This document shows positions 1 to 22,997 of a DNA stretch of 32,000 nt, piece after piece. The position numbers were made by a program, and so were the translations under genes. This stretch comes from Candidatus Hadarchaeales archaeon (lineage in GTDB: Archaea > Hadarchaeota > Hadarchaeia > Hadarchaeales > Hadarchaeaceae), in assembly GCA_038823825.1 (NCBI GenBank), contig JAWBCC010000003.1, positions 90,001 to 122,000 on the forward strand. The letters run 5' to 3'. Position 1 is the first letter of the stretch. The number at the start of each line of letters is the position of its first letter. Under the pieces are notes generated by a model. That model had not been told where the DNA came from. It ran no database searches and worked only from the letters and a program-made list of their open reading frames with translations.

Positions 1-996
1 GAGGGAGAAATCTACACACCAAGGGAGGTCATAAAACTGCTCGTTGAGATTTTGAATCCGAAATCTGGAGAATCTGTTTATGATCCAGCGTGCGGATCGG
101 GTGGAATGCTCATTTTGTCGTTCAAGAATGTGGAGGAAAAGGAGGGGAGGGAGGCAACCCGAAAGCTCTCCTTGTACGGACAGGAGGCAAACCGGGAGAT
201 TTTCGCTCTCTGCAAAATGAATATGTACATCCACGATATTAGGGATGTCAACATTGAGTGGGGTGATACGCTTCTCTATCCAAAGTTCATTGAGGGGAAC
301 AGGCCAAAGACTTTCGACGTTGTGATGGCGAATCCACCTTGGAATCAGGATGGTTATCACGAGGAGGTTCTGAAGAAGGGAGAGTTCTGGGGAGAGAGGT
401 TTGTCTACGGTTTCCCGCCCAAACAGTCTGCGGACTGGGCATGGATTCAGCATATGCTGGCTTCCGCCGACGGGAAAAACGGAAGGGTTGGGGTTGTTAT
501 AGACAACGGTTGTCTGTTCAGGGGAGGGAAGGAGCGGGCAATAAGGGAGAGGGTGCTGAGAGATGACCTGCTGGAGTGCGTGATCCTTCTGCCGGAGAAG
601 CTCTTTTATAACACCGGAGCCCCGGGAGCCATTCTGATTTTCCGTAAACATAAGCCAGCCGAGAGGAAGGGGAAGATCCTGTTCATTAACGCGAGCCAGG
701 AGTATGAGAAGCATCCAGAGGTGAGGAAGCTGAACAGGCTTGGGGAGGCAAACATAAGGAAGATCGCTGAGGCCTACAGGAACTTCAAGGATGTTGAGGG
801 TTTCGCCAGAGTGGTTTCGCTGGGGGAGGTGAGGGAGAACGATTACAATCTAAACGTCACGCTGTACGTCTTTCCGGAGGAGAAGGTCGAGGAGATAGAC
901 GTGGCGAAGGAGTGGGAGGAACTCCGCAAGATTGAGAAGGAAATTACAGAGGTTGAGGAGAAGATTCAGGGATATTTGAGGGAGGTTGGAGGTTAA
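1..996 (+). CDS. hsdM: Type I restriction-modification DNA methyltransferase subunit HsdM (5' end cut by the window)
   Basis: Frame 1 is open from base 1 (EGEIYTPREVIKLLVEILNP precedes the listed Met at 52). It has the AdoMet motif DPACGSGGML and the catalytic NPPW (MANPPWNQ) of N6-adenine methylases. It sits in an operon with hsdS and hsdR. Confidence 0.95.
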   Translation, partial: EGEIYTPREVIKLLVEILNPKSGESVYDPACGSGGMLILSFKNVEEKEGREATRKLSLYGQEANREIFALCKMNMYIHDIRDVNIEWGDTLLYPKFIEGNRPKTFDVVMANPPWNQDGYHEEVLKKGEFWGERFVYGFPPKQSADWAWIQHMLASADGKNGRVGVVIDNGCLFRGGKERAIRERVLRDDLLECVILLPEKLFYNTGAPGAILIFRKHKPAERKGKILFINASQEYEKHPEVRKLNRLGEANIRKIAEAYRNFKDVEGFARVVSLGEVRENDYNLNVTLYVFPEEKVEEIDVAKEWEELRKIEKEITEVEEKIQGYLREVGG

Positions 997-1000
997 ACAA

Positions 1001-1651
1001 ATGAAAAGATCAAATGATGAGATTCGCGAGTTAATTCTAAGAGAATTATATGAAGTTCACAAAAAAGCTAGGAGTCTAAAAGCCACGGGAAAAAGCATAA
1101 GCGAGTTGAAACGCCAACTTAAGAAGCAATATGGACTAAGTGAAAAAGAAATTGTGCCCAATCTTGATTTTTTAATCCAATGCGGTTGGGTAAAGGTAGA
1201 GAAAGAAACATCCGAGTTTAAAACTCCAAGAGGGTTTATAAAGAAACAGGAGAAAGGTATCTTCAAAATTTCAGATATGGGTATCAACTATTTTGAAGGA
1301 CAATCCAAATTCCAAAGGATAGAGAGATCGCTTGCTGGTATAAACATAACTAATATAGGTGGGGTCACAGTCTTAGGGGACGGAAATGTAGTTGTAAATG
1401 TAAACTATGTTGATTTATACAAAGAACTGTCTATGCTTTCAGAGATCATAAGAAAAAGTGATCAACTCAAAGATGTTGACAAATTAAACTACATCGCGGA
1501 AATTGAAACAATAAAATCCCAGTTGATGAAACCGGAACCTGACAAGAACATAATAAAGCAAGCTTGGGAAAAACTAAAGCCACTTGCAACTATTGCTGGC
1601 ATAGCTTCGTTTTTCGAGCGAGTTGTTAAATTAATGGGGGCATTGTTTTGA
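1001..1651 (+). CDS. Hypothetical protein embedded between hsdM and hsdS; N-terminal winged-helix-like region, helical C-terminal half, hydrophobic C-terminal tail
   Basis: ATG at 1001 lies 7 nt after GGAGGT (988-993) and 5 nt after the hsdM stop. The listed 986 start is a TTG inside hsdM. The stop overlaps the hsdS TTG start (TTGA at 1648-1651). The N-terminus (IRELILRELYEVHKK...SISELKRQL...LDFLIQCGWVKV) looks wHTH-like. The tail is LATIAGIASFFERVVKLMGALF. The gene is AT-rich (about 32% G+C in a hand-counted 60-nt line). I recognise no family. Confidence 0.7.
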   Translation: MKRSNDEIRELILRELYEVHKKARSLKATGKSISELKRQLKKQYGLSEKEIVPNLDFLIQCGWVKVEKETSEFKTPRGFIKKQEKGIFKISDMGINYFEGQSKFQRIERSLAGINITNIGGVTVLGDGNVVVNVNYVDLYKELSMLSEIIRKSDQLKDVDKLNYIAEIETIKSQLMKPEPDKNIIKQAWEKLKPLATIAGIASFFERVVKLMGALF

Positions 1652-2913
1652 AAACCGGTTACAAACAAACGCCAATCGGTAGTATCCCGAAGGAGTGGGA
1701 GGTTGTCAGGCTTGGGGATATTTCTAAGGTATCTTCGGGGAATACAGCACCGCAAGATAAAAAATATTTTGAAAATGGGAAATATCCTTTCATAAGAGTT
1801 CAGCACCTTAGTACATTGCTAGAAAATAAATATCCTATTATTTGCGATTTTGTAAATGACTTGGCTGTTGAGGAACTCAAATTGAAAAAATTCAAGAAAG
1901 GTTCTATAATATTTCCGAAAAGCGGGGAGTCTATAAGGCTTGAAAAAAGGGCGATACTAAGAGAGGATTCCTATGTGGTAAACCACTTAGTTGTTGTCGA
2001 AGTTTTTTCAAATAACGTAGATACAAACTTTTTATATTATTATTTGTCAAGCCTCAGAACAAGTAGTTACCTTTCTAAAACTACAATGCCATCACTCAAT
2101 CTTTCAGTCATTAAATCATTTTTAATCCCCCTCCCACCCCTCCCCGAGCAACGTAAGATCGCCGAGATCCTCTCAACAGTCGACCAAGCCATCCAGAAGG
2201 TGGACGAAGCCATAGCCCGGACTGAGAGGTTGAAGCGTGGGCTGATGCAGAGGCTGCTCACCCGGGGTATAGGGCACAGGGAGTTCAAGGACACGGAGAT
2301 AGGGAGGATTCCGAGGAAGTGGGAGGTTGTCAGGCTTGGAGACAAAAAAATTACAGAAGAACTTTTCTACGGTATAACCGCTAAAGCTGTCGATAAGGAT
2401 ACTGGAGTAAAAATGTTGAGAACTACGGATATCAAAGAGTATTCTGTGGACTGGGAAAAACTTCCTTTTTGTGAAATCACTGAAAGGAGGGGTAACTTAA
2501 CTAGATATCTTCTGAAGAAAGGAGACCTGATTGTAGCAAGGGCTGGAACTGTGGGCGTTTCTATTCTTGTGGATAGAGATTTTGACAACGTGATTTTCGG
2601 ATCATATCTGATAAAAGTGAAGCTAAAACCAAGCATACATCCAAAATTTGTTCACTATTTCTTCCAATCCTCACTTTATTGGAAACACCTGCAAAAGGCT
2701 CAAGGAAGTACTTTAAAAAACGTAAACCTGCCTTTGTTAAAATCTCTCAAGATCCCCCTCCCACCCCTCCCCGAGCAGCGCAAGATCGCCGAGATCTTCT
2801 CAATCGTCGACAAAAAGCTCGAACTCGAAAGAAAAAGGAAGGAAAAACTCGAGCGGATCAAGAGGGGTCTGATGAACGATTTGCTCACCGGGAAAAAGAG
2901 GGTGAAGATATGA
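1648..2913 (+). CDS. hsdS: Type I restriction-modification specificity subunit HsdS (two target-recognition domains)
   Basis: The architecture is duplicated. Each half opens with IP(K/R)(E/K)WEVVRLGD and ends with the conserved spacer LPPLPEQRKIAEI(L/F)S(T/I)VD followed by a coiled coil (RLKRGLMQRLLT and RIKRGLMNDLLT). The TTG start overlaps the upstream stop. Confidence 0.95.
   Translation: MKTGYKQTPIGSIPKEWEVVRLGDISKVSSGNTAPQDKKYFENGKYPFIRVQHLSTLLENKYPIICDFVNDLAVEELKLKKFKKGSIIFPKSGESIRLEKRAILREDSYVVNHLVVVEVFSNNVDTNFLYYYLSSLRTSSYLSKTTMPSLNLSVIKSFLIPLPPLPEQRKIAEILSTVDQAIQKVDEAIARTERLKRGLMQRLLTRGIGHREFKDTEIGRIPRKWEVVRLGDKKITEELFYGITAKAVDKDTGVKMLRTTDIKEYSVDWEKLPFCEITERRGNLTRYLLKKGDLIVARAGTVGVSILVDRDFDNVIFGSYLIKVKLKPSIHPKFVHYFFQSSLYWKHLQKAQGSTLKNVNLPLLKSLKIPLPPLPEQRKIAEIFSIVDKKLELERKRKEKLERIKRGLMNDLLTGKKRVKI
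2125..2184 (+). repeat. hsdS internal direct repeat, copy 1 (central conserved region)
   Basis: ATCCCCCTCCCACCCCTCCCCGAGCAACGTAAGATCGCCGAGATCCTCTCAACAGTCGAC matches 2752-2811 at 55 of 60 positions by eye. Confidence 0.9.
2752..2811 (+). repeat. hsdS internal direct repeat, copy 2 (distal conserved region)
   Basis: ATCCCCCTCCCACCCCTCCCCGAGCAGCGCAAGATCGCCGAGATCTTCTCAATCGTCGAC is the partner of 2125-2184. Confidence 0.9.
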
Positions 2914-3884
2914 TTGACCAACATTTGGAAAAAGAAAGAGTGATCGTGGACGAAAAATTAAAACAAAATGAAGAGACCAAAGTATACGAAATTTTTCGTG
3001 AAGTTATGAAGAGTTATCTCGGAGTAGAAATAGAAAAAGAAAAGGCAGGACGAATTTTAGAATTTTTCATGACAGTAATGTATAACTTGACTTTGAATCC
3101 AAGCGCCATCGTTAGAGGGTACTACCTTTGCGCAGAGCAAGATTATGAAGCCGCTAAGTTATTGAGTAAAAAATTTCCCTCCCTCGCCGTTTTTCATTTA
3201 CAACAGACCGTAGAAAAAATAACTAAAGCTTACGCGCTCCACATGGGATTGATAAAAGAAGAAGAATCGTATAAAAAACGAGGAAATAAAGTCGGGACCG
3301 AAGTTGTTGGTCATATCTCACCTAAGGCTTTTATTTTGTTGTTGAAGAAAAGAGGCGCTGCAGAATTCGTCGATACGGTTTTTCTTGCATGTCCAGAAAT
3401 TCCCAAAATAACTGTTAAAGAAGTTCTTCAAAAATTCGAAAAATTACTACAAAAAACGGATGAATTGGCAAAACTCTCAAAAAATGAAATAAACCATTTT
3501 ATAAAAAGATGCGAAGACATCCAAGACGCCATTAGAAAAATTGACATCAGGAAAACAAGGGAAAATTTCAAACGCCTCAAAGTAGGGTTTATTGCAAGAC
3601 TAAGATCTGCGGTTTCACCAGAGATAGTTGAAGATATCAAGAAAAAATTTAACGCGATAGAAAGGAAGATCGGTTCAATAATCAATGAACTTCTAACGTT
3701 TTCGCAACTATATGCTCTGGCGATAATCACCTTTCCGCACTTCTCCTACAGTCGATACCCTGGAGGCAAAATAACATTTGCTGACTATCACGAAGGGCTG
3801 GGTATAGTAGATTCTCTCGATGATATTTTGATCTCTATCGGTTCTATTATGAAAAGTCTAGAAAAAATTTGTGCGAGAGGGTGA
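2910..3884 (+). CDS. HEPN-like protein with a large helical insertion, embedded between hsdS and hsdR
   Basis: ATG at 2910 overlaps the hsdS stop (ATGA) and follows GAGGGTGA (2896-2903). The stop lies 2 nt before the hsdR ATG. The N-terminal helices AEQDYEAAKLLSKKFPSLAVFHLQQTVEKITKAYAL resemble the HEPN helix pair. The C-terminal FSYSRYPGGKITFADY resembles the HEPN (s)RYP(d/g) element. About 170 residues separate the two. The gene is AT-rich (about 28% G+C in a hand-counted line). The listed 2679 start is an out-of-frame read of hsdS. Confidence 0.7.
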   Translation: MIDQHLEKERVIVDEKLKQNEETKVYEIFREVMKSYLGVEIEKEKAGRILEFFMTVMYNLTLNPSAIVRGYYLCAEQDYEAAKLLSKKFPSLAVFHLQQTVEKITKAYALHMGLIKEEESYKKRGNKVGTEVVGHISPKAFILLLKKRGAAEFVDTVFLACPEIPKITVKEVLQKFEKLLQKTDELAKLSKNEINHFIKRCEDIQDAIRKIDIRKTRENFKRLKVGFIARLRSAVSPEIVEDIKKKFNAIERKIGSIINELLTFSQLYALAIITFPHFSYSRYPGGKITFADYHEGLGIVDSLDDILISIGSIMKSLEKICARG

Positions 3885-3886
3885 AA

Positions 3887-6800
3887 ATGCCAATCTTTAC
3901 CGAAAAATCCACTGTTGAAAGCTACATCATAGAAAAGCTGAAGGAAAAAGGCTGGAAGCATGTTCCCGGAGAAGAATTAGAGCGAGAAGACTACTCCGAA
4001 CCGCTTTTGGTGAGGCATCTTCTTGAAGCAATCCACAGAATAAACCCCCACCTAACCCTGACAAAAAAGGATCTGGACAGAATTCTGCTAGAACTCAGGA
4101 GCCTTCCATCCACATTTGATGGTTCCAAGCGACTGCTCAAGTTCCTAAAAGAAGGAATCCCAATAGAACTGGAAAAAACAGGAGAACTCAGATATGTCTC
4201 TCTGCTCGATTACGAAAACCCAAAGGAGAAAAACGAGTTCATCGTAAGCGACCAAGTACCTTTCCACGGGCCTAAAGAAAGATGTAGACTTGACATAGTC
4301 CTCTACGTAAACGGAATCCCGCTTGTAGCAATAGAGTGCAAAAACCCGACCGACCCGACCAGAGACTGGGAAACTGCCTATAAACAGATAAAATCTTACG
4401 AAAAGGCTGTCCCAGAACTCTTCAAGTATGTCCAGTTCAGCATAGCCGCCGCCGCGACCACCAGATATTTCCCGAACGTCTTAGGAGCCGAGGATGTCAA
4501 AATCTACTTCCCTAAAGGGAAAGATACTCCCGAGTCCCTGGATCGAACACTTGACCTCCTCCTAAATCCAGACGCTCTCCTCGATCTTGTTGCAAACTTC
4601 ATTTTCGCGAGGGAAGAGCATGGAAAGTTCACAAAAGTTTTGCCCTACTACTACCAGTACGAAGGCGCCAACCAAATCTACCAAAGAGTCCTTAACAACC
4701 TGTCTGAGAAGGAAAAAAAAGAGAAGGGGTTGATCTGGCATTGGCAGGGTTCCGGAAAAACCCTCACGATGATTTACGCCGCCCGTAAACTTTACCTTTG
4801 CCCCCTGCTTGAAAACCCCACCATCTTCTTCGTCGTCGACAGAGAGGAGCTTGAGGAGCAACTGTTTAAAGAATTTTCTTTCTTAGACCTCGGCATACCC
4901 TCACCTGAGGTCATTTCTTCGATCGAGCACCTCCGTCAGATTCTGACCTATGACGAGGGAAGAGGAAAGAGGGGGATGTTCATCACTCTCATTCACAAGT
5001 TCGGCGAAAAGCTTGCCGATCTCGTTTTTGAGGACAAGGACATGAAAAACATTTCAAACAGGAGAAACGTCATCGTTTTAATAGACGAGGGACATCGGAC
5101 GCAGTACGGAGAGTATGCCGGCCGTATGCGAGGCATACTCAAGAAAGCTTTCTTCTTCGCTTTCACGGGAACTCCTTTCTCCACGAAAAAGAGAGATACC
5201 TTCGCCGCTTTTGCTTATCCCGAGGAGGGCGAACTCTATCTTCACAAATATTTTGTCCGAGAATCAATTGAAGACGGTTTTACCCTCCCCATTGTTTTCC
5301 AGACTAGGATGGAAAAAGAGGTCGGCCTAGAAAAAGAACTACTGGAAGAGTTTTTGGAGCAAGAGCTGGAGGAAATCACCGAAGAATCCCTCCGCCTCGC
5401 CCTAGAAGGAAAAATCAGCAGACGATTGACCCAGATCGTTGTATTCTTTGAGAATCCAGAAAGAATAGAAAAGATTGCCAGCGATATCGCCACTCATTTC
5501 AAGGAAAACGTGGACGGAAAGTTCAAAGGCATGGTTGTGGCGGCTTCAAGAAAAGCGTGCATCTATTATAAGGAGGCTCTCGATCGGCTGCTGGGACCGG
5601 AATACTCCGAGATTGTTATGACGTTCAATCCTCGCACGGACCCCGAACCGATCAAATCCTATTACGAAAAGTTGAGGCAGAAATATCATGGCAAGGAGAT
5701 TGAGGAAATCTGGGATGAGATAATCGAGAAGTTCAAAGAAAGGGAATATCCGAAAATTTTAATCGTCACGGACAAACTTCTGACAGGTTTTGATGCTCCA
5801 ATTCTCCAAGTGATGTATCTAGACAAGCCGCTGAAGGAACATAGGCTTCTTCAAGCAATAGCAAGAACCAATCGTCCATTCAAAGAACTAAAACCAGCGG
5901 GTCTCATCATAGACTATGTCGGAATTCTCAAAGAATTCGAAAAAGCCGTGGCCATTTACGAAAAGCAGGATATTCAGTACGTAGGCTTCAAGCCGGAAGA
6001 AAAGATAGATGAGCTTCGAAAGCTTATCAGCGATGCGGAGGAGACCCTTGAGGGTGTGGATAAAACAAAAACCGATTTTGAAACTCTTAAAGCCGCAGCA
6101 AAACTGCTCTTTCATTATCCAGAAAAGCAGAGAAAATTCTCCCAAACGTACAAACAGGCTAGAAATCTTTACGAGTTTCTTCTCCCCTTCGGGCTGGACA
6201 AGAAGACTGTGGAGAGATTCAAATGGCTGGCCGCAGTCTACAACTTTCATCGCCAATGGGTGGAGCAGGAGAAGTCAGAGGAAATGGAAGAAAACTTTAG
6301 AAAATTCTATCCAAGAGTTGTTGAGCGCGTTCACAAGGCCATCCAAATAGAAATGAAAGAAGAGTTTCCAAGTTTAACGCTTGATAAAGAATATCTTGAA
6401 CGGTTGGGCAGATTGGGTTTAGAAGACCAAGTTTATAACATGGTTTTCGGTCTAAACAAATATATCCGCGTAGACCGTCCGTTCAGTCCTATTTATGAAC
6501 CAATCGCCAAACGCGTGGAAAAACTAGTTGAAAGGTGGCGAAACAAAAAGATTTCGGTCGAGGAGGCTTATAACGAAGCAGTTTCCATTTTGCAGGAAAC
6601 GAGAAAAACCGAGGAGAGAATAAAAACGCTCGGATTCTCAGAGCCAGAATACTTCATTCTCAAAGTTCTTGAAAAGGAACTGGGAGAATCTGAGGATCTA
6701 GTCCAAGAAGTCCGGAGTCTCTGGAGAAAATGGGAGAAGACTGGAAAAATATTCCCAGGATGGACTCGAAAAATGAGTATCCTAAAGGAACTCGTGCGAG

Positions 6801-6895
6801 ATATAAGAATGTTCATGGTAAAGAAAGGTATCCCACTTAAAAGGAGGGAAGAGCTCTGTGAGGAGATCATCAACGGACTCAAGGCCACTTCATAA
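3887..6895 (+). CDS. hsdR: Type I restriction enzyme endonuclease/translocase subunit HsdR
   Basis: PD-(D/E)xK-type nuclease motif DIVLYVNGIPLVAIECK. SF2 helicase motifs WQGSGKT (I), DEGHR (II), TGTP (III) and QAIARTNR (VI). ATG 3887 follows GAGGGTGA. Confidence 0.95.
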   Translation: MPIFTEKSTVESYIIEKLKEKGWKHVPGEELEREDYSEPLLVRHLLEAIHRINPHLTLTKKDLDRILLELRSLPSTFDGSKRLLKFLKEGIPIELEKTGELRYVSLLDYENPKEKNEFIVSDQVPFHGPKERCRLDIVLYVNGIPLVAIECKNPTDPTRDWETAYKQIKSYEKAVPELFKYVQFSIAAAATTRYFPNVLGAEDVKIYFPKGKDTPESLDRTLDLLLNPDALLDLVANFIFAREEHGKFTKVLPYYYQYEGANQIYQRVLNNLSEKEKKEKGLIWHWQGSGKTLTMIYAARKLYLCPLLENPTIFFVVDREELEEQLFKEFSFLDLGIPSPEVISSIEHLRQILTYDEGRGKRGMFITLIHKFGEKLADLVFEDKDMKNISNRRNVIVLIDEGHRTQYGEYAGRMRGILKKAFFFAFTGTPFSTKKRDTFAAFAYPEEGELYLHKYFVRESIEDGFTLPIVFQTRMEKEVGLEKELLEEFLEQELEEITEESLRLALEGKISRRLTQIVVFFENPERIEKIASDIATHFKENVDGKFKGMVVAASRKACIYYKEALDRLLGPEYSEIVMTFNPRTDPEPIKSYYEKLRQKYHGKEIEEIWDEIIEKFKEREYPKILIVTDKLLTGFDAPILQVMYLDKPLKEHRLLQAIARTNRPFKELKPAGLIIDYVGILKEFEKAVAIYEKQDIQYVGFKPEEKIDELRKLISDAEETLEGVDKTKTDFETLKAAAKLLFHYPEKQRKFSQTYKQARNLYEFLLPFGLDKKTVERFKWLAAVYNFHRQWVEQEKSEEMEENFRKFYPRVVERVHKAIQIEMKEEFPSLTLDKEYLERLGRLGLEDQVYNMVFGLNKYIRVDRPFSPIYEPIAKRVEKLVERWRNKKISVEEAYNEAVSILQETRKTEERIKTLGFSEPEYFILKVLEKELGESEDLVQEVRSLWRKWEKTGKIFPGWTRKMSILKELVRDIRMFMVKKGIPLKRREELCEEIINGLKATS

Positions 6896-7619
6896 AGTGC
6901 TGAGGATAGAAGGAGAAAGCATACCTTATACTGTCGAATGGAGGAAAGTGAAATATCCGCGTTTGGAACTGAAAACCGGGAAGCTAAAGATAATTCTTCC
7001 AAAAGGAGTAAAGGACGAAACACCCATTCTGGAAAGAAATCTCCAGTGGATACTTAAAAGGCATGAAGAAATCAAGAGGGCAAAGGAGAACATAGCAAAC
7101 TCCTTGAGCGGAAATGGGATTCTCATCTTCGGCTCTTTCTATAAAGTCGAGCCGGGCATACCCCTCGTCATTTTCCTGAACGGGATACAGAAAAAGTTCG
7201 ACCTGATGAAAGAAAGAGACCAGGTTAAACTAAGAAACTTTCTAAAAAAGATTCTGAGAGAGGAGCTGAGGAAGTTAGTGAACCACTATTCATCAAAATT
7301 TGGTCTGAGATTCGGAAGAATATACATAAGAAACCAGAAAACAAAATGGGCAAGTTGTTCCTCCTCGGGTAACCTGAGCTTTAACTTCCGGCTTGTTCAC
7401 GTACCATATGATATTTTAAAGTATGTTGTCTGTCATGAGGTTCTTCACCTAGCTGAAAAAGGTCATTCGAAAAAATTCTGGGAAAAAATCAGAGAGGAGT
7501 TTCCAAACTACAAAGAGATGGAGAAAAAACTTTTCGAATACTGGTTTTTCACGATGGATTCCCAATTTCCAGATATTCGTTTTATTGGAAAGCGAAAAAC
7601 CTCAAGAAATTTGGAATGA
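6858..7619 (+). CDS. DUF45/YgjP-like (WLM-type) zinc metallohydrolase
   Basis: HExxH motif in VVCHEVLHLAEKGHSKKFW. GTG 6858 is preceded by GGAGGG (6843-6848) and overlaps the hsdR 3' end by 38 nt. COG1451-type proteins are commonly found next to hsdR. Confidence 0.85.
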   Translation: MRRSSTDSRPLHKVLRIEGESIPYTVEWRKVKYPRLELKTGKLKIILPKGVKDETPILERNLQWILKRHEEIKRAKENIANSLSGNGILIFGSFYKVEPGIPLVIFLNGIQKKFDLMKERDQVKLRNFLKKILREELRKLVNHYSSKFGLRFGRIYIRNQKTKWASCSSSGNLSFNFRLVHVPYDILKYVVCHEVLHLAEKGHSKKFWEKIREEFPNYKEMEKKLFEYWFFTMDSQFPDIRFIGKRKTSRNLE

Positions 7620-7688: not shown

Positions 7689-8390
7689 ATGAGAAAACGT
7701 CTCTCACAGTCCGAGGAAGAATATCTAGAGGCGATTTACAGAGAAACTCGCACAGGCAAGGATGCAAAAATCTCCAAGCTGGCTTCATCGCTCAAGGTAA
7801 AATCCCCAAGCGTAGTCCAGATGATAAACAGACTTTCCAGACGCGGCCTGACCAGCAAAACGAAAGAAGGAGTCCGACTTACAAAAAAGGGAGAAGCCTC
7901 CGCGGCGAAGATAGTTAGGAGACATAGACTGGCAGAACGACTTTTGAGCGACATTCTCGGCTGCGATCTTCCAAGCGTCCACGAGAAAGCCTGCGAGCTC
8001 GAGCACGTGATCGACGACGAACTCGCAGAAAAACTGGAGAAGGTCCTTGGAGCCCCCTCATGCCCTCACGGCGCCCCCATCCCCGACAGAGAAGGGAAGA
8101 CGCCCGACATAGGCACCATCCCCCTCAGCGAGGTGGGTGAGGGGAAAAAAGCCATCATCTTCAGGATTCCAGAAGACAGATTGGCCGTTCAAAGGCTTCT
8201 ATCCCTTTGCATTTTGCCCGGAGCCGAGGTAGAGGTGCAGAGGAAATCCCCAGGAGGTTCCGTGATCATAAAAGTTGGTAAAACAAACGTCGCCCTGAGC
8301 GGAGATCTCTCGAGAAATATAGAAGTCGCAAGTCCAGCCGTCTGGAGGAGGTTCAGACACAGATGGCGCTGGGGGATAAGAAAACCCTGA
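7689..8390 (+). CDS. DtxR/MntR-family metal-dependent repressor fused to a C-terminal FeoA (SH3-like) domain
   Basis: N-terminal wHTH SEEEYLEAIYRE...ISKLASSLKVKSPSVVQMINRL. Dimerisation and metal region RRHRLAERLLSDILG...HEKACELEHVIDDEL...CPHG. C-terminal FeoA-like GEGKKAIIFRI...RLLSLCILPGAEVEV. The 3' end overlaps feoB by 28 nt. Confidence 0.9.
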   Translation: MRKRLSQSEEEYLEAIYRETRTGKDAKISKLASSLKVKSPSVVQMINRLSRRGLTSKTKEGVRLTKKGEASAAKIVRRHRLAERLLSDILGCDLPSVHEKACELEHVIDDELAEKLEKVLGAPSCPHGAPIPDREGKTPDIGTIPLSEVGEGKKAIIFRIPEDRLAVQRLLSLCILPGAEVEVQRKSPGGSVIIKVGKTNVALSGDLSRNIEVASPAVWRRFRHRWRWGIRKP

Positions 8391-10327
8391 AGATAGCCCT
8401 GGTTGGAACACCAAACGTAGGTAAGAGCGTTTTCTTCCACCAAATCGCCGGCGCGGACGTGATCGTCTCAAACTACCCTGGGACAACGGTGGAAATTCAC
8501 GAAGCAAAGGTGAAAAGAAACGACTTTGAAATATCGCTCTTTGACCTGCCAGGAATATACTCACTTGGTGCACTCTCAGAGGACGAGATCGTTGCCAGAA
8601 AGGCCATACTTGAACAGCGCCCCGACGTCGTAATCGATATCCTCGACGCTTCCAATCTAGAAAGAAGTCTCTATCTCACGCTCCAACTGCTTGAGCTAAA
8701 CATCCCCCTCGTAATCGCTTTGAACATGGTCGACCTAGCCGAATCGCAGGGTCTTCATCCCAACCCAGATAAACTTTCCAAAATTCTCGGCAGCCCAGTG
8801 ATTCCAACGGTTGCGACTCGCGGAAAAAACATTTCTAAAGTCTTCGATGTCGCCATCACAATCGCTCAAAAAAGCACCAAACCAGAATGGAAGCCCAAGC
8901 TTTCAGGAGACCTCGAGGGCGCAGTCGGCAAACTTTCCCGCGTGATAAAACGTAAATTCCGAGAAATCCCATACAATCTTCCGCCAGAAACCATTGCTCT
9001 CCGAATTCTTGAAGGAGATGCCCACATCATAGAGACGATCGCCGAAATCGAAGGAAGCGAGGATGTCCTAGAAGAAGCGGAAAGACTCGTGAAAAAAATA
9101 GAAAACATCCGCAAGGAGCCGCTTGCCATCACCATCGCCCGCGAAAGACACAGCCTCGCCGCCATGATCGCAAAAAACATCACCGAAATAAAAAAGCCGA
9201 GGAAATCCAAGCTAGAAAGATTAGATTCAATTCTGACATCTCCAAAGACCGGGTTACCAATAGCTGCAATGGTTTTCGTTCTCGTGCTTCTAACTCTCAT
9301 ATACTTCGGCGGTTTGATCGAGGACATTCTCACAAATGGATGGGAAAATCACATTTCCCCATCTCTCACTTCAGCCTTCTCTCATATGGGCAAGCTAGGC
9401 GAGGCTCTGAACATAGGACTCAACTGGGGAATCCAAGGAATCCTCGCAGTCATCATACCATACATTCTTCCATTCTTCATCATTATGGGAATTCTCGAGG
9501 ACGTCGGCTATCTTCCAAGAATCGCCTTTCTTCTCGATTCCCTTATGCACAAGATAGGACTTCACGGAAGAGCTGTGATTCCCCTCTTCGGCGGTTTCGG
9601 CTGCAACGTTCCGGCCATCATGGCGACGAGAACCCTCCTTTCCAAGCGTGAAAGAGTTATCGCAAGTATTCTTATCACAATGATCCCCTGCTCAGCCAGA
9701 ACAGCGGTCATCCTCGGTTTGGTCGGAAACTATCTTGGCGTTCTCTACGCTCTAACAATATACGCCATAATCCTTTTCCTCATCTTTCTGGTGGGATTTC
9801 TCCTCAATCGCTGGATTCCCGGAAAAACCCCAGGAATGATCATGGAGGTTCCGCCACTCCGTGCCCCAGCTTGGAAACCCATCCTTGCAAACACGTGGAT
9901 AAGAATGAAACACTTCCTATTTCTCGCCATGCCTCTTCTCCTCGTTTCAAGCTTCATCATCGGGCTCATGCAAGTCGGAGGAATTCTCGATGCCATAGTG
10001 CCGGTTTTCTCTCCTCTCACCACAGGTCTTCTCGGACTCCCAGCCATTACAATCATTCCCCTCCTCTACGGTTTCCTAAGAAAGGAAGGCGGTCTTGTTC
10101 TCTTGGTGACCGTTGCCGGGACAAGCAACCTTCTGGAATTCATGACACCGTTACAGCTCTACGTCTACGTCCTCGTTCTGAGCATATACATTCCATGCGT
10201 GGCAACAGTCGCCGTCATAAGGAGAGAACTGGGCTGGAAGATTGCACTCTCAACAGCTTTTGGCACATTCATGCTCGCCGTAGCCGTGGGAGGTCTCGTC
10301 TTCCACTTTAATCCTCTTCGTCTATGA
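8363..10327 (+). CDS. feoB: Ferrous iron transporter FeoB (N-terminal GTPase plus polytopic membrane domain)
   Basis: G1 motif LVGTPNVGKS, YPGTTVE (G2), DLPG (G3), NMVD (G4), followed by long hydrophobic segments through to the C-terminus. Confidence 0.95.
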   Translation: MALGDKKTLKIALVGTPNVGKSVFFHQIAGADVIVSNYPGTTVEIHEAKVKRNDFEISLFDLPGIYSLGALSEDEIVARKAILEQRPDVVIDILDASNLERSLYLTLQLLELNIPLVIALNMVDLAESQGLHPNPDKLSKILGSPVIPTVATRGKNISKVFDVAITIAQKSTKPEWKPKLSGDLEGAVGKLSRVIKRKFREIPYNLPPETIALRILEGDAHIIETIAEIEGSEDVLEEAERLVKKIENIRKEPLAITIARERHSLAAMIAKNITEIKKPRKSKLERLDSILTSPKTGLPIAAMVFVLVLLTLIYFGGLIEDILTNGWENHISPSLTSAFSHMGKLGEALNIGLNWGIQGILAVIIPYILPFFIIMGILEDVGYLPRIAFLLDSLMHKIGLHGRAVIPLFGGFGCNVPAIMATRTLLSKRERVIASILITMIPCSARTAVILGLVGNYLGVLYALTIYAIILFLIFLVGFLLNRWIPGKTPGMIMEVPPLRAPAWKPILANTWIRMKHFLFLAMPLLLVSSFIIGLMQVGGILDAIVPVFSPLTTGLLGLPAITIIPLLYGFLRKEGGLVLLVTVAGTSNLLEFMTPLQLYVYVLVLSIYIPCVATVAVIRRELGWKIALSTAFGTFMLAVAVGGLVFHFNPLRL

Positions 10328-11149
10328 TTTCCGGAAAAGTTTTCTCACCTCTGAAATTCCCTTCCTCCCTATTTTTTCAGGTTCATCCGGATTAAAAAGC
10401 TCCACTATCAACGCTCCCGAATAATCGATTTTCCAGAAAGCAGCCACAATAGGTTTAAAATCGATTTCTCCCTCACCCGGTACGAGATGATCGTCCTTAA
10501 ACCCTCTATTATCGTGGACATGCACGTGAACGATTTTTTCGCAAAGTTTTTCGATTTTCTCAGCAATCTTTTTCTCCGGAGATTTCGACCTTTTTCTCTC
10601 GACCAAATATGCATGCCCAATATCCAAACATATCCCCACATCGAATTTTTTCAAAAGCTCAGGCAATTCCTCAAGCACAGCGTAAGGCCCAAAGGCCGAG
10701 CTTCCATTCTCAACCGCAATCTTCACATTTAGCCGTTTTGCAAATGCACAAACTTCTCTCATGGTCTTTTCGTATATCTCTCCAGCTTTCCTCCACATCC
10801 ACTCCACTTCAGGGATTGGACATTTTCCAGCGTGAAGCACAACGGGACCCCCGTCCAGCTTTGCGCAGACTTCAATCCCAGACTTAATTCTTTTAACCGC
10901 TGTTTTCCTGACCTCAGGAATAATGCTTGCCGGATTGATATCCCAAAAGCTGGCGTGAACAGAAATTTCCAAGCCGGCGTCCCTAATTATTCGACCGATT
11001 CTCTGTAGGTCGGGTTTCTCACATCCAGGCGCAAAGTGCGGAAAATCCCAGATGATTTCCACCCACTCTGCTCCGAGTTCAGCACAGACCTCCACAGCTT
11101 TCTCCAGAGAATACCTCGGGAACAAGAGTGTGGATAATCCGATTTTCAT
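10322..11149 (-). CDS. Sugar phosphate isomerase/epimerase (xylose isomerase-like TIM barrel, AP endonuclease 2 family)
   Basis: MKIGLSTLLF...AVEVCAELGAEWVEI, VLHAG, IAVEN and LDIGHAY motifs are typical of the family. The start is set at ATG 11149, 5 nt after GGAGGG. The listed 11218 start adds a 23-aa unlikely leader. Confidence 0.8.
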   Translation of the reverse strand: MKIGLSTLLFPRYSLEKAVEVCAELGAEWVEIIWDFPHFAPGCEKPDLQRIGRIIRDAGLEISVHASFWDINPASIIPEVRKTAVKRIKSGIEVCAKLDGGPVVLHAGKCPIPEVEWMWRKAGEIYEKTMREVCAFAKRLNVKIAVENGSSAFGPYAVLEELPELLKKFDVGICLDIGHAYLVERKRSKSPEKKIAEKIEKLCEKIVHVHVHDNRGFKDDHLVPGEGEIDFKPIVAAFWKIDYSGALIVELFNPDEPEKIGRKGISEVRKLFRKS

Positions 11150-11221
11150 TCTTTCCCTCCCCAGCTTTTCTGGTAGTGTTTGGTTTTCCACGTTATTATA
11201 AAATACCGGAAAAGGCACCGG

Positions 11222-11890
11222 CTATTTCTCATCTTCTTTCATGGCTTTGGTCGCTCTCTCGTGGGCAAGCATGATAGGCTCAGGTAATCGTCTCCCCCTA
11301 CATGTTTCGAGTGTTATTTTGATGGCGCTCTCAAGTGAAATTTTATGTCCAATGCTCACGTAGACCGGTTTCTCCCCTTTCAGCGTCCTAACAATAGCGC
11401 CGACGACTTCATCCCCATCGATCAAAGGTTCCCAAGCCCCGGCTTTATCTGCGGGAATCTTCCCCTCTCCAACAAGCTTACTTTTCGCCACCCCGAGAGT
11501 AGGCCTATCGATCACAACGCCAAGATGGCAGGCCAGCCCAGCTCTTCTCGGATGCGCGAGCCCCTGTGCTCCAACCATATAAACATCCGCTTCCCTGCCA
11601 GTCAAAACTTTCAGAAGTCCCTCGAGTTCTCTGAATGCAAGGAATGTCGGAATGTAGGGAAATGTTAGCTTGACAGGTGCGATTTTCTCCTCCAAATCTT
11701 CAAGCGTCCTGTAATCCAGCACTACGCAGGCCGCATAAGCCTTATCACCTCTGCTGAACGAGATGTCGCAACCTGCAATTCTCTCGATTTTAGAAAAATC
11801 GTTTTCTCTTTTCACGAGCTGGGCAACCTTTAGCTGTATCTGCTTTAGCTCCTCCAGATTTAGACTCTTCGGTTTGAGCAACGGTAACAT
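11222..11890 (-). CDS. nfi: Endonuclease V (deoxyinosine 3' endonuclease)
   Basis: IAGCDISF, AYAACVVLD, PYIPTFLAFRE and GLAHPRRAGLACHLGV are hallmark Nfi motifs. Confidence 0.9.
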   Translation of the reverse strand: MLPLLKPKSLNLEELKQIQLKVAQLVKRENDFSKIERIAGCDISFSRGDKAYAACVVLDYRTLEDLEEKIAPVKLTFPYIPTFLAFRELEGLLKVLTGREADVYMVGAQGLAHPRRAGLACHLGVVIDRPTLGVAKSKLVGEGKIPADKAGAWEPLIDGDEVVGAIVRTLKGEKPVYVSIGHKISLESAIKITLETCRGRRLPEPIMLAHERATKAMKEDEK

Positions 11891-11965
11891 CTCAAAAACA
11901 TCCTCATTCGGGCGTATTTAGCTATCGCGAAGATATTAATTCTTCCAAATTCCAAGTTTATCCCG

Positions 11966-12154
11966 ATGAGGCTGAAAGGACCGAAGTGCATGATCTGTGG
12001 GGAGAAGATACAGATAATGAGTATGGACTCGGCCTACGTGAAGTTTGTTAGACCTGGCGAAGCCAAAGGAATCTTCATCTGCTGGAAGTGTGCTGAAAAG
12101 GAGTTCGGCGAAGTCCTGCAGGATATCCTGACAAAGGTCGCTGGTAAGGGGTGA
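11966..12154 (+). CDS. Small zinc-ribbon-like protein (62 aa)
   Basis: Two Cys pairs, CMICGE ... CWKCAE. The stop overlaps the GTG start of the downstream primase-polymerase gene (GTGA), which suggests translational coupling. Confidence 0.55.
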   Translation: MRLKGPKCMICGEKIQIMSMDSAYVKFVRPGEAKGIFICWKCAEKEFGEVLQDILTKVAGKG

Positions 12155-13236: not shown

Positions 13237-13298
13237 GACTTTCTAGATTATCCCTTTTCTTTCTGCATCGATTTCTAAAATCCAAATAGGAGGGCCCC

Positions 13299-13556
13299 CG
13301 CTGTTCCCCGACACACTAACCCCCGGCTTCATCGTTTGCCTTTTCGGCGCTCTCCGCCAGGTAACCCTCATGGCGGGGATTCCACGGGGACCTGATCGCC
13401 TGTTCCGCACAGGGGTTGTCTTCGGGTCATGGGCAGACGGTTCGCCACTTCCTCCCCGAAGGACCCGTCCGCGCGGTTTCTCGGCGGTCATAGCTCCAGT
13501 GTCTCCGCGGCCTTGCCCAGCGTTCATAAAAAATCCCGCTGCCCTCGTAGCCGCGG
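13299..13556 (-). ncRNA. Candidate three-hairpin box H/ACA guide sRNA. Being an RNA gene is fairly secure; the class and strand are tentative.
   Basis: The block is about 65% G+C (hand count of one line) and sits in an intergenic gap whose only ORFs encode Arg/Pro/Gly-rich nonsense. On the minus strand there are three hairpins: 13505-13556, 13405-13476 and 13305-13390. Each is followed by ACA (13500-13502, 13401-13403, 13302-13304), lying 15, 14 and 13 nt 3' of the upper stem. GA/UGA K-turn or K-loop-like motifs sit above the upper stems. G.U pairs in the HP2 and HP3 helices favour the minus strand. Confidence 0.5.
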
Positions 13557-13645
13557 AACTCCCCTCTCATCGCAAATAACCATATCTCACGCAAAGGGTA
13601 TTAACTTAACGTTTCCAAGTTTATTATCTCACGAGGGGTGCGGTA

Positions 13646-15718: not shown

Positions 15719-15724
15719 ATCATC

Positions 15725-15733
15725 TTTATAAAA
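15725..15733 (+). promoter_or_regulatory. Possible TATA box for the COG1900 gene
   Basis: TTTATAAAA lies about 25 nt upstream of the GTG at 15758. It competes with a GGGAGG immediately before the start, so the leader structure is unresolved. Confidence 0.35.
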
Positions 15734-15757
15734 TAACTCATCCCAAGTAAAAGGGAG

Positions 15758-17269: not shown

Positions 17270-17273
17270 TTTC

Positions 17274-18406: not shown

Positions 18407-18409
18407 TCG

Positions 18410-19770: not shown

Positions 19771-19822
19771 CCCTCTCTCCCCGCAAATAACTTAAGAGTT
19801 ATCCCGGAGCTTCTACCAGACG

Positions 19823-20872: not shown

Positions 20873-20881
20873 GGTGGTCTG

Positions 20882-22956: not shown

Positions 22957-22997
22957 CAACTGGCTTTTAAAACGAGGAGGTTAAATAATCCGAACAT

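What the first reader, a model, noticed from the sequence alone, without database searches (positions are those of the whole stretch)
1..7619. Type I R-M operon with two extra AT-rich genes inserted at both hsdS junctions (prr/PrrC-like layout)
Six ORFs are packed head to tail:
- The hsdM stop is at 996, and the next ATG at 1001 sits behind GGAGGT.
- That gene's stop overlaps the hsdS TTG (TTGA).
- The hsdS stop overlaps the next ATG (ATGA at 2910).
- That gene stops 2 nt before the hsdR ATG (3887).
- A DUF45 metallohydrolase GTG (6858) overlaps hsdR by 38 nt.
The two inserted genes are strongly AT-rich. Hand counts of single 60-nt lines give about 32% and 28% G+C for them, against about 57% in hsdM. 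That suggests a different origin or a later insertion. The known precedent is the E. coli prr locus (hsdM-hsdS-prrC-hsdR), where the HEPN anticodon nuclease PrrC is held latent by the R-M complex and fires when phage inhibits restriction. Here an apparently HEPN-like gene occupies the same hsdS/hsdR slot, and a second unknown gene occupies the hsdM/hsdS slot. I do not recognise this pairing as a described system. It may be an R-M-guarded abortive-infection or backup module in an archaeon.
Basis: partly seen in the sequence, partly recalled or inferred. Interest (0 to 1): 0.75.

Follow-up and report, generated by a model that had tools for sequence, protein, structure and literature searches.

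The report
Type I restriction operon with embedded genes
An archaeal Type I restriction-modification operon carries two extra genes, a HEPN-type putative RNase and a DNA-binding winged-helix protein; each belongs to its own family that recurs inside restriction operons, which is an already described pattern with two uncharacterised members.

Summary
X and Y are the most AT-rich stretches of the window (35.6% and 36.3% G+C, against 50.9% for hsdM).

The source is a Candidatus Hadarchaeales MAG.

Y is a stand-alone HEPN of the PF05168 ("HEPN-T") class. It has a helical insert of about 130 aa and an invariant Q98-Q99-E102 / H135 / H277 / R282 / Y293 set, but no Rx4-6H histidine and no ABC ATPase. 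It is therefore not a PrrC homologue. Its relatives sit between hsdS and hsdR in at least 22 other operons. More distant relatives are solitary.

X is a winged helix-turn-helix protein with a C-terminal module shared with the untested PADLOC candidate PDC-M14B. Its family has 575 clusters at 50% identity. Members abut hsdS in Type I operons, sit between a methylase and an S gene in Type IIG-like loci, precede mod in Type III loci, or stand alone.

X and Y co-occur in the window and one close relative (L114). Most loci have only one of them, so they are not an obligate pair.

HEPN toxins and other genes embedded in R-M operons are already described (Anantharaman 2013; Makarova 2013; Payne 2024). 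Both functions remain inferred. Interest is moderate to low.

The parts
1..996 (+). hsdM, Type I methyltransferase subunit; its 5' end lies outside the window
   Evidence: Pfam N6_Mtase E=1.7e-103. PADLOC MTase_I E=3.4e-83. It is 83% identical to the hsdM of L114.
981..993 (+). Two Shine-Dalgarno-like GGAGGT copies ahead of the X start codon
   Evidence: Read directly from the sequence. The second copy lies 7 nt before ATG 1001.
1001..1651 (+). X, 216 aa: winged helix-turn-helix (residues 1-100), a conserved Gly/Asn-rich hairpin (113-133), and a four-helix C-terminal module (134-215) shared with PADLOC PDC-M14B
   Evidence: P0001 is 100% identical. The AF2 model has pLDDT 85. Foldseek matches PadR, RTP and TFIIE winged helices. 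PDC-M14B matches X at E=3.5e-8 and all 41 family members. There is no Pfam family. The family has 575 clusters at 50% identity.
1648..2913 (+). hsdS, specificity subunit with two target-recognition domains; its TTG start overlaps the X stop
   Evidence: Pfam Methylase_S E=1.3e-51 in two stretches. The internal repeats 2125-2187/2752-2814 and 1662-1718/2286-2342 mark the conserved regions.
2910..3884 (+). Y, 324 aa: stand-alone HEPN-T (PF05168-class) protein with an N-terminal helical extension and a helical insert of about 130 aa between the core helices. Invariant Q98 Q99 E102 H135 H277 R282 Y293.
   Evidence: P0121 is 100% identical. Pfam HEPN scores 19.5 bits against a cut-off of 22. Twelve of 16 homologues and the L114 homologue carry PF05168. 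The AF2 model has pLDDT 78.6. Foldseek gives probability 0.92 to 1wol. The family profile aligns to TM0613 and ST0689. The invariant residues hold across 70 sequences.
3887..6895 (+). hsdR, restriction/translocase subunit
   Evidence: Pfam HSDR_N 5e-38, SWI2_SNF2 2e-58, T1R_D3-like 4e-25, T1RH-like_C 6e-6.
6858..7619 (+). YgjP-like (DUF45) zinc metallopeptidase overlapping the hsdR 3' end; an alternative in-frame GTG lies at 6897
   Evidence: Pfam YgjP-like E=1.7e-41. The same gene follows hsdR in L036, L042, L043, L044, L065, L100, L101, L104, L111, L114 and L116.

Best explanation
This is a Type I restriction-modification operon of an uncultured Hadarchaeales archaeon (hsdM-hsdS-hsdR plus the commonly linked YgjP-like peptidase). 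It carries two embedded accessory genes from two independent families that each recur in R-M loci.

Y is the constant occupant of the hsdS/hsdR slot in this lineage of archaeal and thermophile operons. It is a stand-alone HEPN domain of the PF05168 'HEPN-T' class. Its Arg (R282) is kept, the canonical His of Rx4-6H is missing, and other histidines (H277, H135) are invariant. That is the 'alternative active site' version described for AF0298-type HEPNs. A helical insert of about 130 aa and an N-terminal helical extension are added to the four-helix core.

Inferred mechanism for Y: it is co-translated with HsdS and HsdR and is most likely a latent RNA-targeting (or nucleotide-binding) effector. 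Its activity would be held in check by, or triggered through, the restriction complex. This gives a second, dormancy or suicide, layer when restriction is bypassed or inhibited. The logic is PrrC-like but evolved independently.

X is a winged-helix DNA-binding protein fused to the C-terminal module of the PADLOC candidate PDC-M14B. It is almost always the gene abutting, and often overlapping, the specificity gene. It lies before hsdS in Type I and Type IIG-like loci and before mod in Type III loci. It also occurs alone near other defence genes.

Inferred role for X: a nucleic-acid-binding sensor or regulator that travels with R-M specificity modules.

X and Y work independently of each other. 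The hsdM/hsdS slot is a hotspot where cargo is exchanged (X; Fic; AlbA_2/Schlafen-like; PDC-M11 with ASCH; a VapC/PIN-like ORF judged by eye).

Shown here: the gene order, the family assignments, the conserved contexts and the invariant residues.
Inferred: RNase activity, coupling to the R-M complex, DNA binding by X, and any anti-virus phenotype.
For: Anatomy and translational coupling.

Y is a HEPN:
- Pfam PF05168 hit at E=1.1e-3, 19.5 bits, on the window protein.
- Precomputed PF05168 on 12 of 16 homologues and on the L114 homologue.
- The only meaningful Foldseek hit is the archaeal HEPN 1wol, probability 0.92.
- The family profile aligns the 'A..D...a.f..QQ.EK..KA' helices to TM0613 (1o3u) and ST0689 (1wol), and aligns 'sRYP' to 1wol.
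- Across 70 family members down to about 22% identity, L97, Q98, Q99, E102, H135, H277, R282 and Y293 are 100% invariant. Positions +5 to +7 after R282 are variable.

Y context:
- 22 of 79 metagenomic loci have hsdS directly upstream and/or hsdR directly downstream.
- These include 11 of the 12 loci with a near-full-length match at 33% identity or more, as do the P0123 contigs L111-L113 (L113 being the L032 contig again) and the Y-like gene of L114.
- hsdS, hsdR, DUF45 and hsdM are the only widely recurring neighbour families.
- Two operons carry tandem Y paralogues.

X:
- The AF2 model shows a winged helix plus a helical C-domain, with winged-helix fold matches.
- PDC-M14B matches the C-terminal part of X (residues about 100-213) and is hit by all 41 members.
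- Contexts are hsdM-X-hsdS in 12 or more loci, MTase-X-S in L011 and L018, and X-Mod-Res in L021 and L023 (Pfam-verified). The rest are solitary, some beside Argonaute-associated-nuclease-like, PLD-like or Mrr-like genes.
- A 4-nt or 1-nt stop/start overlap with the next gene is seen in the window, L003, L008, L012, L016 and L114.

Hotspot: slot 1 holds Fic + 126 aa + X (L114), Fic + X (L115), AlbA_2/HATPase + 2 ORFs + X (L116), or PDC-M11A (E=5e-149) + ASCH (L111).

Concept precedent: the immunity-suicide coupling hypothesis and PrrC (PMC3632139), and embedding of defence genes in Type I R-M (10.1101/2024.01.29.577857).
Against: - There is no biochemical or phenotypic evidence for any activity of X or Y. 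No member of either family appears to have been tested.
- PF05168-class HEPNs were first described as nucleotide- or substrate-binding domains. RNase activity of the 'alternative His' versions is itself only predicted.
- I could not inspect model coordinates, so I did not show that H135, H277 and R282 cluster in space.
- Y identity and hsdR identity across loci correlate only weakly (rho 0.31, n=13, p=0.30), so co-evolution with HsdR is not demonstrated.
- Most distant Y relatives and about a third of X relatives are not next to R-M genes, so neither family strictly needs an R-M partner.
- The strongly conserved winged helix of X, in operons of unrelated sequence, does not fit a simple operon-specific repressor. 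Its target is unknown.
Confidence: 0.55

Rival explanations
1. X and Y together form one dedicated two-gene module guarded by the R-M enzyme. Each would need the other, for example X as sensor or antitoxin and Y as toxin.
For: They co-occur in the window and in its closest relative L114, which reads hsdM-Fic-126aa-X-hsdS-HEPN-hsdR-YgjP. Both are unusually AT-rich. Published work notes that R-M-linked HEPN toxins lack a recognisable antitoxin (PMC3632139).
Against: None of the 79 Y-family metagenomic loci contains X, including 22 complete or partial Type I operons, and neither do L111/L112. None of the 31 genome loci with X contains Y. L116 has X without Y. The two genes are separated by hsdS, not adjacent. 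X also sits in Type III and Type IIG-like loci that have no HEPN.
Confidence: 0.05
2. Y is a non-catalytic accessory or regulatory subunit of the restriction enzyme. It would be a nucleotide- or nucleic-acid-binding adaptor that modulates HsdR loading, restriction alleviation or complex stability, rather than a toxin or abortive-infection effector.
For: The slot between hsdS and hsdR is fixed, with near-overlapping codons, as expected for stoichiometric subunits. The Rx4-6H histidine is absent. PF05168 was originally defined as a nucleotide-binding domain. HEPN domains of another subfamily (DUF4145) are reported fused to Type I REase subunits (PMC3632139), which suggests a recurrent physical HEPN-HsdR partnership. 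No antitoxin-like gene is present.
Against: A set of polar residues is 100% invariant (Q98, Q99, E102, H135, H277, R282, Y293) across embedded and solitary members. That pattern is more typical of a catalytic or ligand site that works on its own. Most distant relatives are solitary and far from any hsd gene, so the family does not depend on HsdR. Many Type I operons of the same lineage lack Y and carry unrelated genes in that slot (L003, L008, L016, L116).
Confidence: 0.2
3. X is simply a transcriptional controller of the R-M operon, analogous to C proteins. It would time or balance expression of the specificity and restriction genes and would have no defence activity of its own.
For: X has a winged-helix DNA-binding fold and is small. 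It is found in three R-M types, always next to the methylase or specificity genes. It is translationally coupled to hsdS. Weak matches to the Csa3 regulator model occur in 7 of 41 members.
Against: The presumed recognition-helix region is nearly invariant across archaeal and bacterial operons of unrelated sequence and type. That is unexpected for operator-specific regulators. X usually lies inside the operon behind coding sequence, not behind a promoter region. The C-terminal 100 aa carry many invariant polar residues and are shared with PDC-M14B proteins that have a different N-terminus. About a third of homologues are solitary, some beside other defence-type genes.
Confidence: 0.25
4. Y acts as a selfish addiction (toxin-like) element. 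It would stabilise the R-M operon or its mobile cassette by post-segregational killing rather than serve anti-virus defence.
For: PF05168 HEPNs are toxins of HEPN-MNT toxin-antitoxin modules, which are common in thermophilic archaea (PMC3632139). The persistent low GC of Y in every host and the mosaic similarity pattern suggest frequent horizontal movement.
Against: No MNT or other antitoxin candidate lies next to Y in any of the 22 embedded loci; hsdS and hsdR are the direct neighbours. The window operon is flanked by housekeeping genes, with no integrase or transposase on its 3' side.
Confidence: 0.1
5. X and Y are decaying or non-functional AT-rich filler ORFs from a recent foreign insertion.
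For: They have the lowest G+C and GC3 of the window. Neither has a Pfam family above threshold.
Against: Both are intact and preceded by SD-like motifs. Both are conserved in large families: 575 clusters for X and 70 or more full-length relatives with invariant residues for Y. Both models are confident. The syntenic positions are conserved in other genomes.
Confidence: 0.02

Closest known systems
E. coli prr locus (hsdM-hsdS-prrC-hsdR; PrrC anticodon nuclease guarded by EcoprrI)
   Same: A HEPN-superfamily gene is embedded in a Type I R-M operon directly upstream of hsdR, with no antitoxin gene. The plausible logic is the same: a latent effector coupled to the restriction complex (PMC3710099 and PMC3632139).
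   Different: PrrC is an ABC-ATPase-HEPN fusion with an Rx4-6H active site. Y has no NTPase domain, belongs to the PF05168 HEPN-T class, lacks the motif His, and has a 130-aa helical insert. There is no sequence similarity. Y is found in archaea and thermophiles rather than Proteobacteria. tRNA cleavage and masking by the R-M enzyme are untested.
HEPN-T / classical HEPN family (Pfam PF05168; structures TM0613 1o3u, ST0689 1wol, AF0298 2hsb), including members noted to cluster with R-M operons
   Same: Y shares the core helices and the signature 'QQxxEK...H...H-x4-RYP'. It has the alternative conserved His in place of the Rx4-6H His. R-M clustering is already noted for the family (PMC3710099).
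   Different: Y is 2-3 times longer, with an N-terminal extension and a large helical insert that splits the domain. It has no MNT partner or fusion. One clade occupies the hsdS/hsdR slot consistently. The window protein scores just under the Pfam cut-off.
Genes embedded in Type I R-M, BREX, DISARM and Hma ('guilt-by-embedding'; PADLOC PDC candidates, Payne et al. 2024), specifically PDC-M14B and PDC-M11
   Same: X's C-terminal 100 residues match the PDC-M14B models in all 41 family members. Related operons carry PDC-M11A in the same slot. The phenomenon, and the inference that such genes are defence candidates, is the one described in that paper.
   Different: X has a winged-helix N-terminus instead of the PDC-M14B N-terminal region. 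No PDC-M14A partner was found next to X. PDC-M14 itself is an untested candidate. Y matches no PADLOC model.
HEPN (DUF4145) domains fused to Type I restriction subunits
   Same: A HEPN domain is physically or genetically joined to the Type I restriction component (PMC3632139).
   Different: It is a different HEPN subfamily, and it is fused rather than encoded as a separate gene. The window HsdR has a T1RH-like C-terminus and no HEPN domain.
Controller (C) proteins of R-M systems
   Same: Both are small DNA-binding proteins encoded inside R-M operons (own knowledge).
   Different: C proteins are Xre-type HTH proteins of about 80 aa that act on C-boxes upstream of their own and the R gene (own knowledge). 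X is a 216-aa winged-helix protein with an extra conserved C-terminal module. It is placed before the specificity or mod gene and is also found alone.

Membership tests
Type I restriction-modification system | HsdM with an N6-adenine methyltransferase domain | tested here: met
   PF02384 E=1.7e-103 on 1-996. The gene is 5'-truncated by the window edge.
Type I restriction-modification system | HsdS with two target-recognition domains separated by conserved repeats | tested here: met
   PF01420 in two stretches, E=1.3e-51. Internal repeats D1 and D2.
Type I restriction-modification system | HsdR with an N-terminal nuclease region and an SF2 motor | tested here: met
   HSDR_N 5e-38, SWI2_SNF2 2e-58, ResIII and T1R_D3-like.
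PrrC/RloC anticodon nucleases | N-terminal ABC (Rad50/SbcC-like) NTPase domain | tested here: not met
   Y has no NTPase domain in Pfam or NCBIfam. The AF2 model is all-helical apart from one short low-confidence hairpin, at 324 aa.
PrrC/RloC anticodon nucleases | C-terminal HEPN with an Rx4-6H catalytic motif | tested here: not met
   R282 is invariant, but positions +5 to +7 are variable (K/E/D, I/M/L, T/K/N) in 70 sequences.
PrrC/RloC anticodon nucleases | Embedded in a Type I R-M operon next to hsdR | tested here: met
   Y lies between hsdS and hsdR in the window and in at least 22 related loci.
PrrC/RloC anticodon nucleases | tRNA anticodon cleavage, masked by the R-M enzyme and unleashed by an anti-restriction factor | not testable with these tools
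   This requires biochemistry and genetics.
HEPN-T (Pfam PF05168) | Score at or above the Pfam gathering threshold | tested here: inconclusive
   The window Y scores 19.5 bits against a cut-off of 22. Twelve of 16 homologues and the L114 homologue carry precomputed PF05168 hits.
HEPN-T (Pfam PF05168) | Helical HEPN core with the conserved helix-2 signature and the basic residue of the motif | tested here: met
   Foldseek probability 0.92 to 1wol. The profile aligns to 1o3u and 1wol. QQxxEK, H135, H277-x4-R282-Y-P are invariant.
HEPN-MNT toxin-antitoxin module | Adjacent or fused minimal nucleotidyltransferase | tested here: not met
   The direct neighbours are hsdS and hsdR. No conserved MNT-like neighbour appears in 73 loci.
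PADLOC candidate PDC-M14 | PDC-M14B protein | tested here: inconclusive
   Only the C-terminal part of X matches (residues 120-212 against profile positions 163-254 of 261, E=3.5e-8). All 41 family members match. The N-terminus differs.
PADLOC candidate PDC-M14 | PDC-M14A partner gene upstream | tested here: not met
   hsdM lies directly upstream in the window. Small ORFs upstream of X in L114, L116, L014 and L001 match no PADLOC model.
YgjP-like / DUF45 metallopeptidase | PF01863 domain above threshold | tested here: met
   E=1.7e-41, 142.9 bits against a cut-off of 26.
R-M controller (C) proteins | Xre-type HTH of about 80 aa with a C-box operator upstream | tested here: not met
   Tested: X is a 216-aa winged-helix protein, not an Xre-type HTH of about 80 aa. 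Not tested: presence of a C-box operator. The sequence upstream of X is hsdM coding sequence.

The most novel reading that the evidence does not exclude
X is a previously unrecognised accessory component that travels with the specificity genes of three different R-M classes. It lies before hsdS in Type I and Type IIG-like loci and before mod in Type III loci. It would be a conserved winged-helix sensor whose PDC-M14B-like C-terminal module signals or executes a response when the R-M enzyme meets foreign DNA or an anti-restriction factor. In this archaeon it would operate beside a second, independent R-M-coupled effector, the insert-bearing HEPN Y, which would be an archaeal functional analogue of PrrC using the alternative-histidine active site.
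Probability: 0.15. Interest if true: 0.65.

Novelty: new member of a known kind. Interest (0 to 1): 0.35.

Why it matters
Accessory genes embedded in R-M operons are a recognised source of new defence functions, and the only well-studied case of R-M-coupled suicide is bacterial PrrC. This locus adds two untested families.

The first is a clade of stand-alone, split HEPN-T proteins fixed between hsdS and hsdR in archaeal and thermophile Type I operons. It is a clean system for testing two things: whether the 'alternative histidine' HEPNs are real RNases, and whether the immunity-suicide coupling hypothesis holds in archaea.

The second is a widespread winged-helix family (575 clusters at 50% identity, no Pfam model). 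It is translationally coupled to specificity genes in Type I operons and also precedes specificity or mod genes in Type IIG-like and Type III loci.

The gain is incremental. It supplies candidates and context, not a new principle.

Tried and rejected
- Foldseek of Y against PDB gave only generic helical bundles apart from 1wol.
- Foldseek of X against PDB and BFVD gave only generic winged-helix hits, and nothing for the C-terminal module.
- The X family profile against PDB sequences gave only a spurious designer PPR match.
- NCBIfam gave nothing meaningful for X, Y or DUF45.
- Per-member Pfam scans of the X family gave only weak sub-threshold DUF494, DUF5457 and HTH hits.
- The supplements of Payne et al. 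identify PDC-M14 only as cassette FAM_02625>>FAM_00494. The text held gives no annotation for either family.
- tblastn of X and Y against the PLSDB plasmid and INPHARED phage collections found no match.
- The bacterial promoter and terminator scan is uninformative for an archaeon and found nothing notable.
- The literature search for DUF45/COG1451 linked to Type I R-M found nothing useful. The DUF45-hsdR link rests on the loci seen here.
- Co-divergence of Y with hsdR was weak and non-significant, so I make no claim of co-evolution.
- I considered a search for a conserved operator upstream of X and dropped it, because upstream sequence is coding in most loci.
- I considered whether Y's longer ORF from TTG 2679 is real. 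I rejected it because the database protein and all homologues start at the ATG 2910 equivalent.

Full report
**Observation**

- hsdM is cut by the window start and ends at 996. Two GGAGGT motifs precede the ATG of gene X at 1001.
- The X stop overlaps the hsdS TTG at 1648 (TTGA).
- The hsdS stop overlaps the ATG of gene Y at 2910 (ATGA).
- Y stops at 3884, two bases before the hsdR ATG at 3887.
- A GTG at 6858, preceded by AAGGAGGG, opens the DUF45 gene 38 nt before the hsdR stop.

Pfam confirms N6_Mtase, Methylase_S (two stretches), HSDR_N/SWI2_SNF2/T1R_D3 and YgjP-like for the four known genes. Public proteins identical to X (P0001) and Y (P0121) use the same start codons. Both come from a Candidatus Hadarchaeales MAG, so the host is an archaeon as guessed.

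The compositional contrast is real but smaller than the hand counts suggested. G+C is X 35.6%, Y 36.3%, hsdM 50.9%, hsdR 44.8% and window 45.7%. GC3 is 0.34 for X and Y against 0.51-0.65 for hsdR and hsdM. The lowest-GC 650-nt and 975-nt windows of the 32 kb start within X, and for 975 nt run into hsdS.

**Gene Y**

The window protein hits Pfam HEPN (PF05168) just below threshold (19.5 bits against 22). Twelve of its 16 database homologues carry precomputed PF05168 hits.

An AlphaFold model built on the family alignment is confident (pLDDT 78.6, pTM 0.78) and almost entirely helical. Its only meaningful Foldseek match in the PDB is the archaeal HEPN ST0689 (1wol, probability 0.92). The family profile aligns the 'A..D...QQ.EK..KA' helices to TM0613 and ST0689, and aligns 'sRYP' to ST0689.

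Y is thus a classical 'HEPN-T' domain split by a helical insert of about 130 residues and preceded by a helical extension of about 70 residues.

In an alignment of 70 full-length relatives, down to about 22% identity, L97, Q98, Q99, E102, H135, H277, R282 and Y293 are 100% invariant. The positions where the His of an Rx4-6H motif would lie are variable. This is the situation Anantharaman et al. describe for AF0298-type HEPN-T proteins. In those the Arg is kept, the motif His is lost, and a second conserved His N-terminal to the motif is proposed to form an alternative active site (PMC3710099).

Y has no NTPase domain, so it is not a PrrC/RloC homologue.

**Context of Y**

A metagenome scan with the family alignment returned 79 loci. 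In 22 of them hsdS lies directly upstream and/or hsdR directly downstream, usually followed by the DUF45 gene. These include 11 of the 12 loci with a near-full-length match at 33% identity or more.

Clustering of all neighbours shows that hsdS (position -1), hsdR (+1), DUF45 (+2/+3) and hsdM are the only widely recurring neighbour families. More distant relatives are solitary genes in varied neighbourhoods. By eye, some lie beside DUF262-, SIR2- or AIPR-like genes. Two operons carry two tandem Y paralogues that both keep the motifs.

Y homologues are always lower in G+C than the hsdM and hsdR genes around them, for example 0.248 against 0.512 in L036 and 0.369 against 0.593 in L042. The AT-richness is therefore a property of the family, not a sign of a recent insertion here. 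I cannot explain it.

**Gene X**

X has no Pfam or NCBIfam family. The AlphaFold model (pLDDT 85) shows three parts:
- an N-terminal winged helix-turn-helix (residues 1-100);
- a highly conserved Gly/Asn-rich hairpin, 'GINITNIxGVTVxGDxNxVVN';
- a four-helix C-terminal module.

Foldseek matches the winged helix to PadR, RTP and TFIIE-type domains only. The C-terminal part matches the PADLOC models for PDC-M14B in all 41 family members tested. PDC-M14 is an untested two-gene candidate that Payne et al. derived from genes embedded in BREX, DISARM and Type I R-M systems.

An exhaustive profile search finds 575 clusters at 50% identity. Nearly all are about 215 aa with the same architecture.

**Context of X**

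The 31 genome loci come from archaea (Bathyarchaeia, Methanosuratincola, Methanomicrobia, Archaeoglobaceae, Woesearchaeota) and from bacteria (Aquificae, CPR, KSB1, Actinomycetes, Gammaproteobacteria). The contexts fall into four groups:
- X lies between hsdM and hsdS in 12 or more Type I operons.
- It lies between a methylase, or nuclease-methylase fusion, and an S gene in two Type IIG-like loci (L011, L018).
- It lies directly upstream of Mod-Res in two Type III loci (L021, L023). Both of these groups were verified with Pfam.
- It is solitary elsewhere, sometimes beside genes matching Argonaute-associated nuclease, PLD/DrmC-like or Mrr-like models, and once directly after a PDC-M14B-like gene.

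When other cargo shares the hsdM/hsdS slot, X is always the last gene, abutting hsdS (L114, L115, L116). Its stop overlaps or touches the next start in the window, L003, L008, L012, L016 and L114.

**Are X and Y a pair?**

Mostly not. No Y locus from the metagenome scan contains X, and no X locus from the genome scan contains Y.

The closest relative of the window operon does carry both. L114 has hsdM 83%, X 76%, hsdS 59%, Y 40% and hsdR 56% identity to the window. Its order is hsdM-Fic-126aa-X-hsdS-HEPN-hsdR-YgjP.

L111 shares L114's chromosomal neighbourhood and has the best long-contig Y match (53%). It has PDC-M11A (E=5e-149) plus an ASCH protein in place of X. L116 has X but unrelated ORFs in the Y slot.

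The picture is a lineage of Type I operons with two slots. The hsdS/hsdR slot is usually occupied by Y. The hsdM/hsdS slot is a hotspot for exchangeable cargo, X among it. The mosaic similarity (window hsdM and X nearest L114, Y nearest L111/L032) points to recombination between operons.

**Mechanism**

Shown here: tight, probably translationally coupled co-expression of X and Y with the R-M subunits; a conserved polar site in Y; and conserved genomic coupling of Y to hsdS/hsdR and of X to specificity genes.

Inferred for Y: it is a latent RNA-targeting or nucleotide-binding HEPN effector, controlled by or signalling through the restriction complex. This is the immunity-suicide coupling idea exemplified by PrrC (PMC3632139).

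Inferred for X: it is a nucleic-acid-binding sensor or regulator associated with the specificity module.

The main rivals are these:
- Y is a non-catalytic accessory subunit of the enzyme.
- X is merely a C-protein-like regulator. Its near-invariant winged helix across unrelated operons argues against operon-specific operators.
- Y is an addiction toxin.

None can be settled without experiments.

**Comparison with what is known, and novelty**

Embedding of HEPN toxins and other genes in R-M operons is well documented. [quoted passage not shown]

Y fails two defining PrrC features and lacks the MNT partner of HEPN-MNT modules. It fits HEPN-T as an unusually long, split variant. X is only partly PDC-M14B-like and lacks a PDC-M14A partner. 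Neither matched plasmid or phage collections.

I therefore file the locus as new members of a known kind. It is useful as candidates, especially the X family's cross-type association with specificity genes, but it is not a new type of system. The rest of the window is housekeeping.

Noticed in passing
window 2125-2187 / 2752-2814 and 1662-1718 / 2286-2342: Two pairs of direct repeats inside hsdS, 63 nt at 90% and 57 nt at 77% identity. They correspond to the conserved regions that flank the two target-recognition domains, and they are G+C-rich islands within an otherwise AT-rich gene. This is the usual substrate for TRD shuffling.
   Followed up: partly
window 6858-6899: The DUF45 gene has two possible starts. 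GTG 6858 has an AAGGAGGG motif 9 nt upstream and overlaps hsdR by 38 nt. An in-frame GTG at 6897 lies 1 nt after the hsdR stop. Homologous loci L111 and L114 are called with a 32-nt overlap, which favours the upstream start.
   Followed up: partly
window 2679-2909: The Y reading frame stays open upstream to a TTG at 2679 inside hsdS, giving a 401-aa ORF in the mechanical list. Homologues and the database protein start at ATG 2910, so the extension is an artefact.
   Followed up: yes
window 7689-10327: A DtxR-type iron repressor fused to a FeoA domain (7689-8390) overlaps the start of FeoB (8363-10327) by 28 nt. It appears to be a compact iron-uptake regulon directly downstream of the R-M operon.
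   Followed up: partly
window 10322-26140: The rest of the window is DNA-repair and housekeeping: endonuclease IV-like TIM barrel, endonuclease V, LigD-type primase-polymerase, a type IA topoisomerase, HcyBio-CBS, a NurA-HerA pair (19823-22438) and SufBD. There are no further defence genes, no tRNA genes and no mobile-element genes on the 3' side.
   Followed up: partly
L101 8163-10030 and L104 5619-7471: Two Type I operons carry two tandem Y-family paralogues between hsdS and hsdR. In L104 both paralogues keep the QQxxEK / His / Arg-Tyr motifs. In L101 the second paralogue aligns Pro at the H135 position, possibly a misalignment. This may indicate a heterodimeric HEPN.
   Followed up: partly
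L111 4802-6761 (also L033, L035): In the sister operon the hsdM/hsdS slot holds PADLOC candidate PDC-M11A (507 aa, E=5e-149) followed by a 152-aa ASCH-domain protein, plus two small Fic-fragment-like ORFs.
   Followed up: partly
L014 8780-10633: A 263-aa PDC-M14B-like gene sits about 400 nt upstream of a solitary X homologue in a Bathyarchaeota genome. Two proteins sharing the same C-terminal module are therefore neighbouring genes on the same strand.
   Followed up: no
L036, L042, L032 and other Y loci: Y-family genes stay at roughly 25-37% G+C in most loci even when the flanking hsdR is 51-59% G+C. L101 and L104 are higher, at 0.44 and 0.49. This is unexplained; possible causes are frequent transfer, low expression or selection on the mRNA.
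   Followed up: partly
L033, L036, L065, L101 (hsdM N-termini): hsdM genes of this operon lineage are 575-622 aa, with a long N-terminal extension. By eye the first 60 residues look like a winged helix. The window copy is truncated, so this part is unseen here.
   Followed up: no
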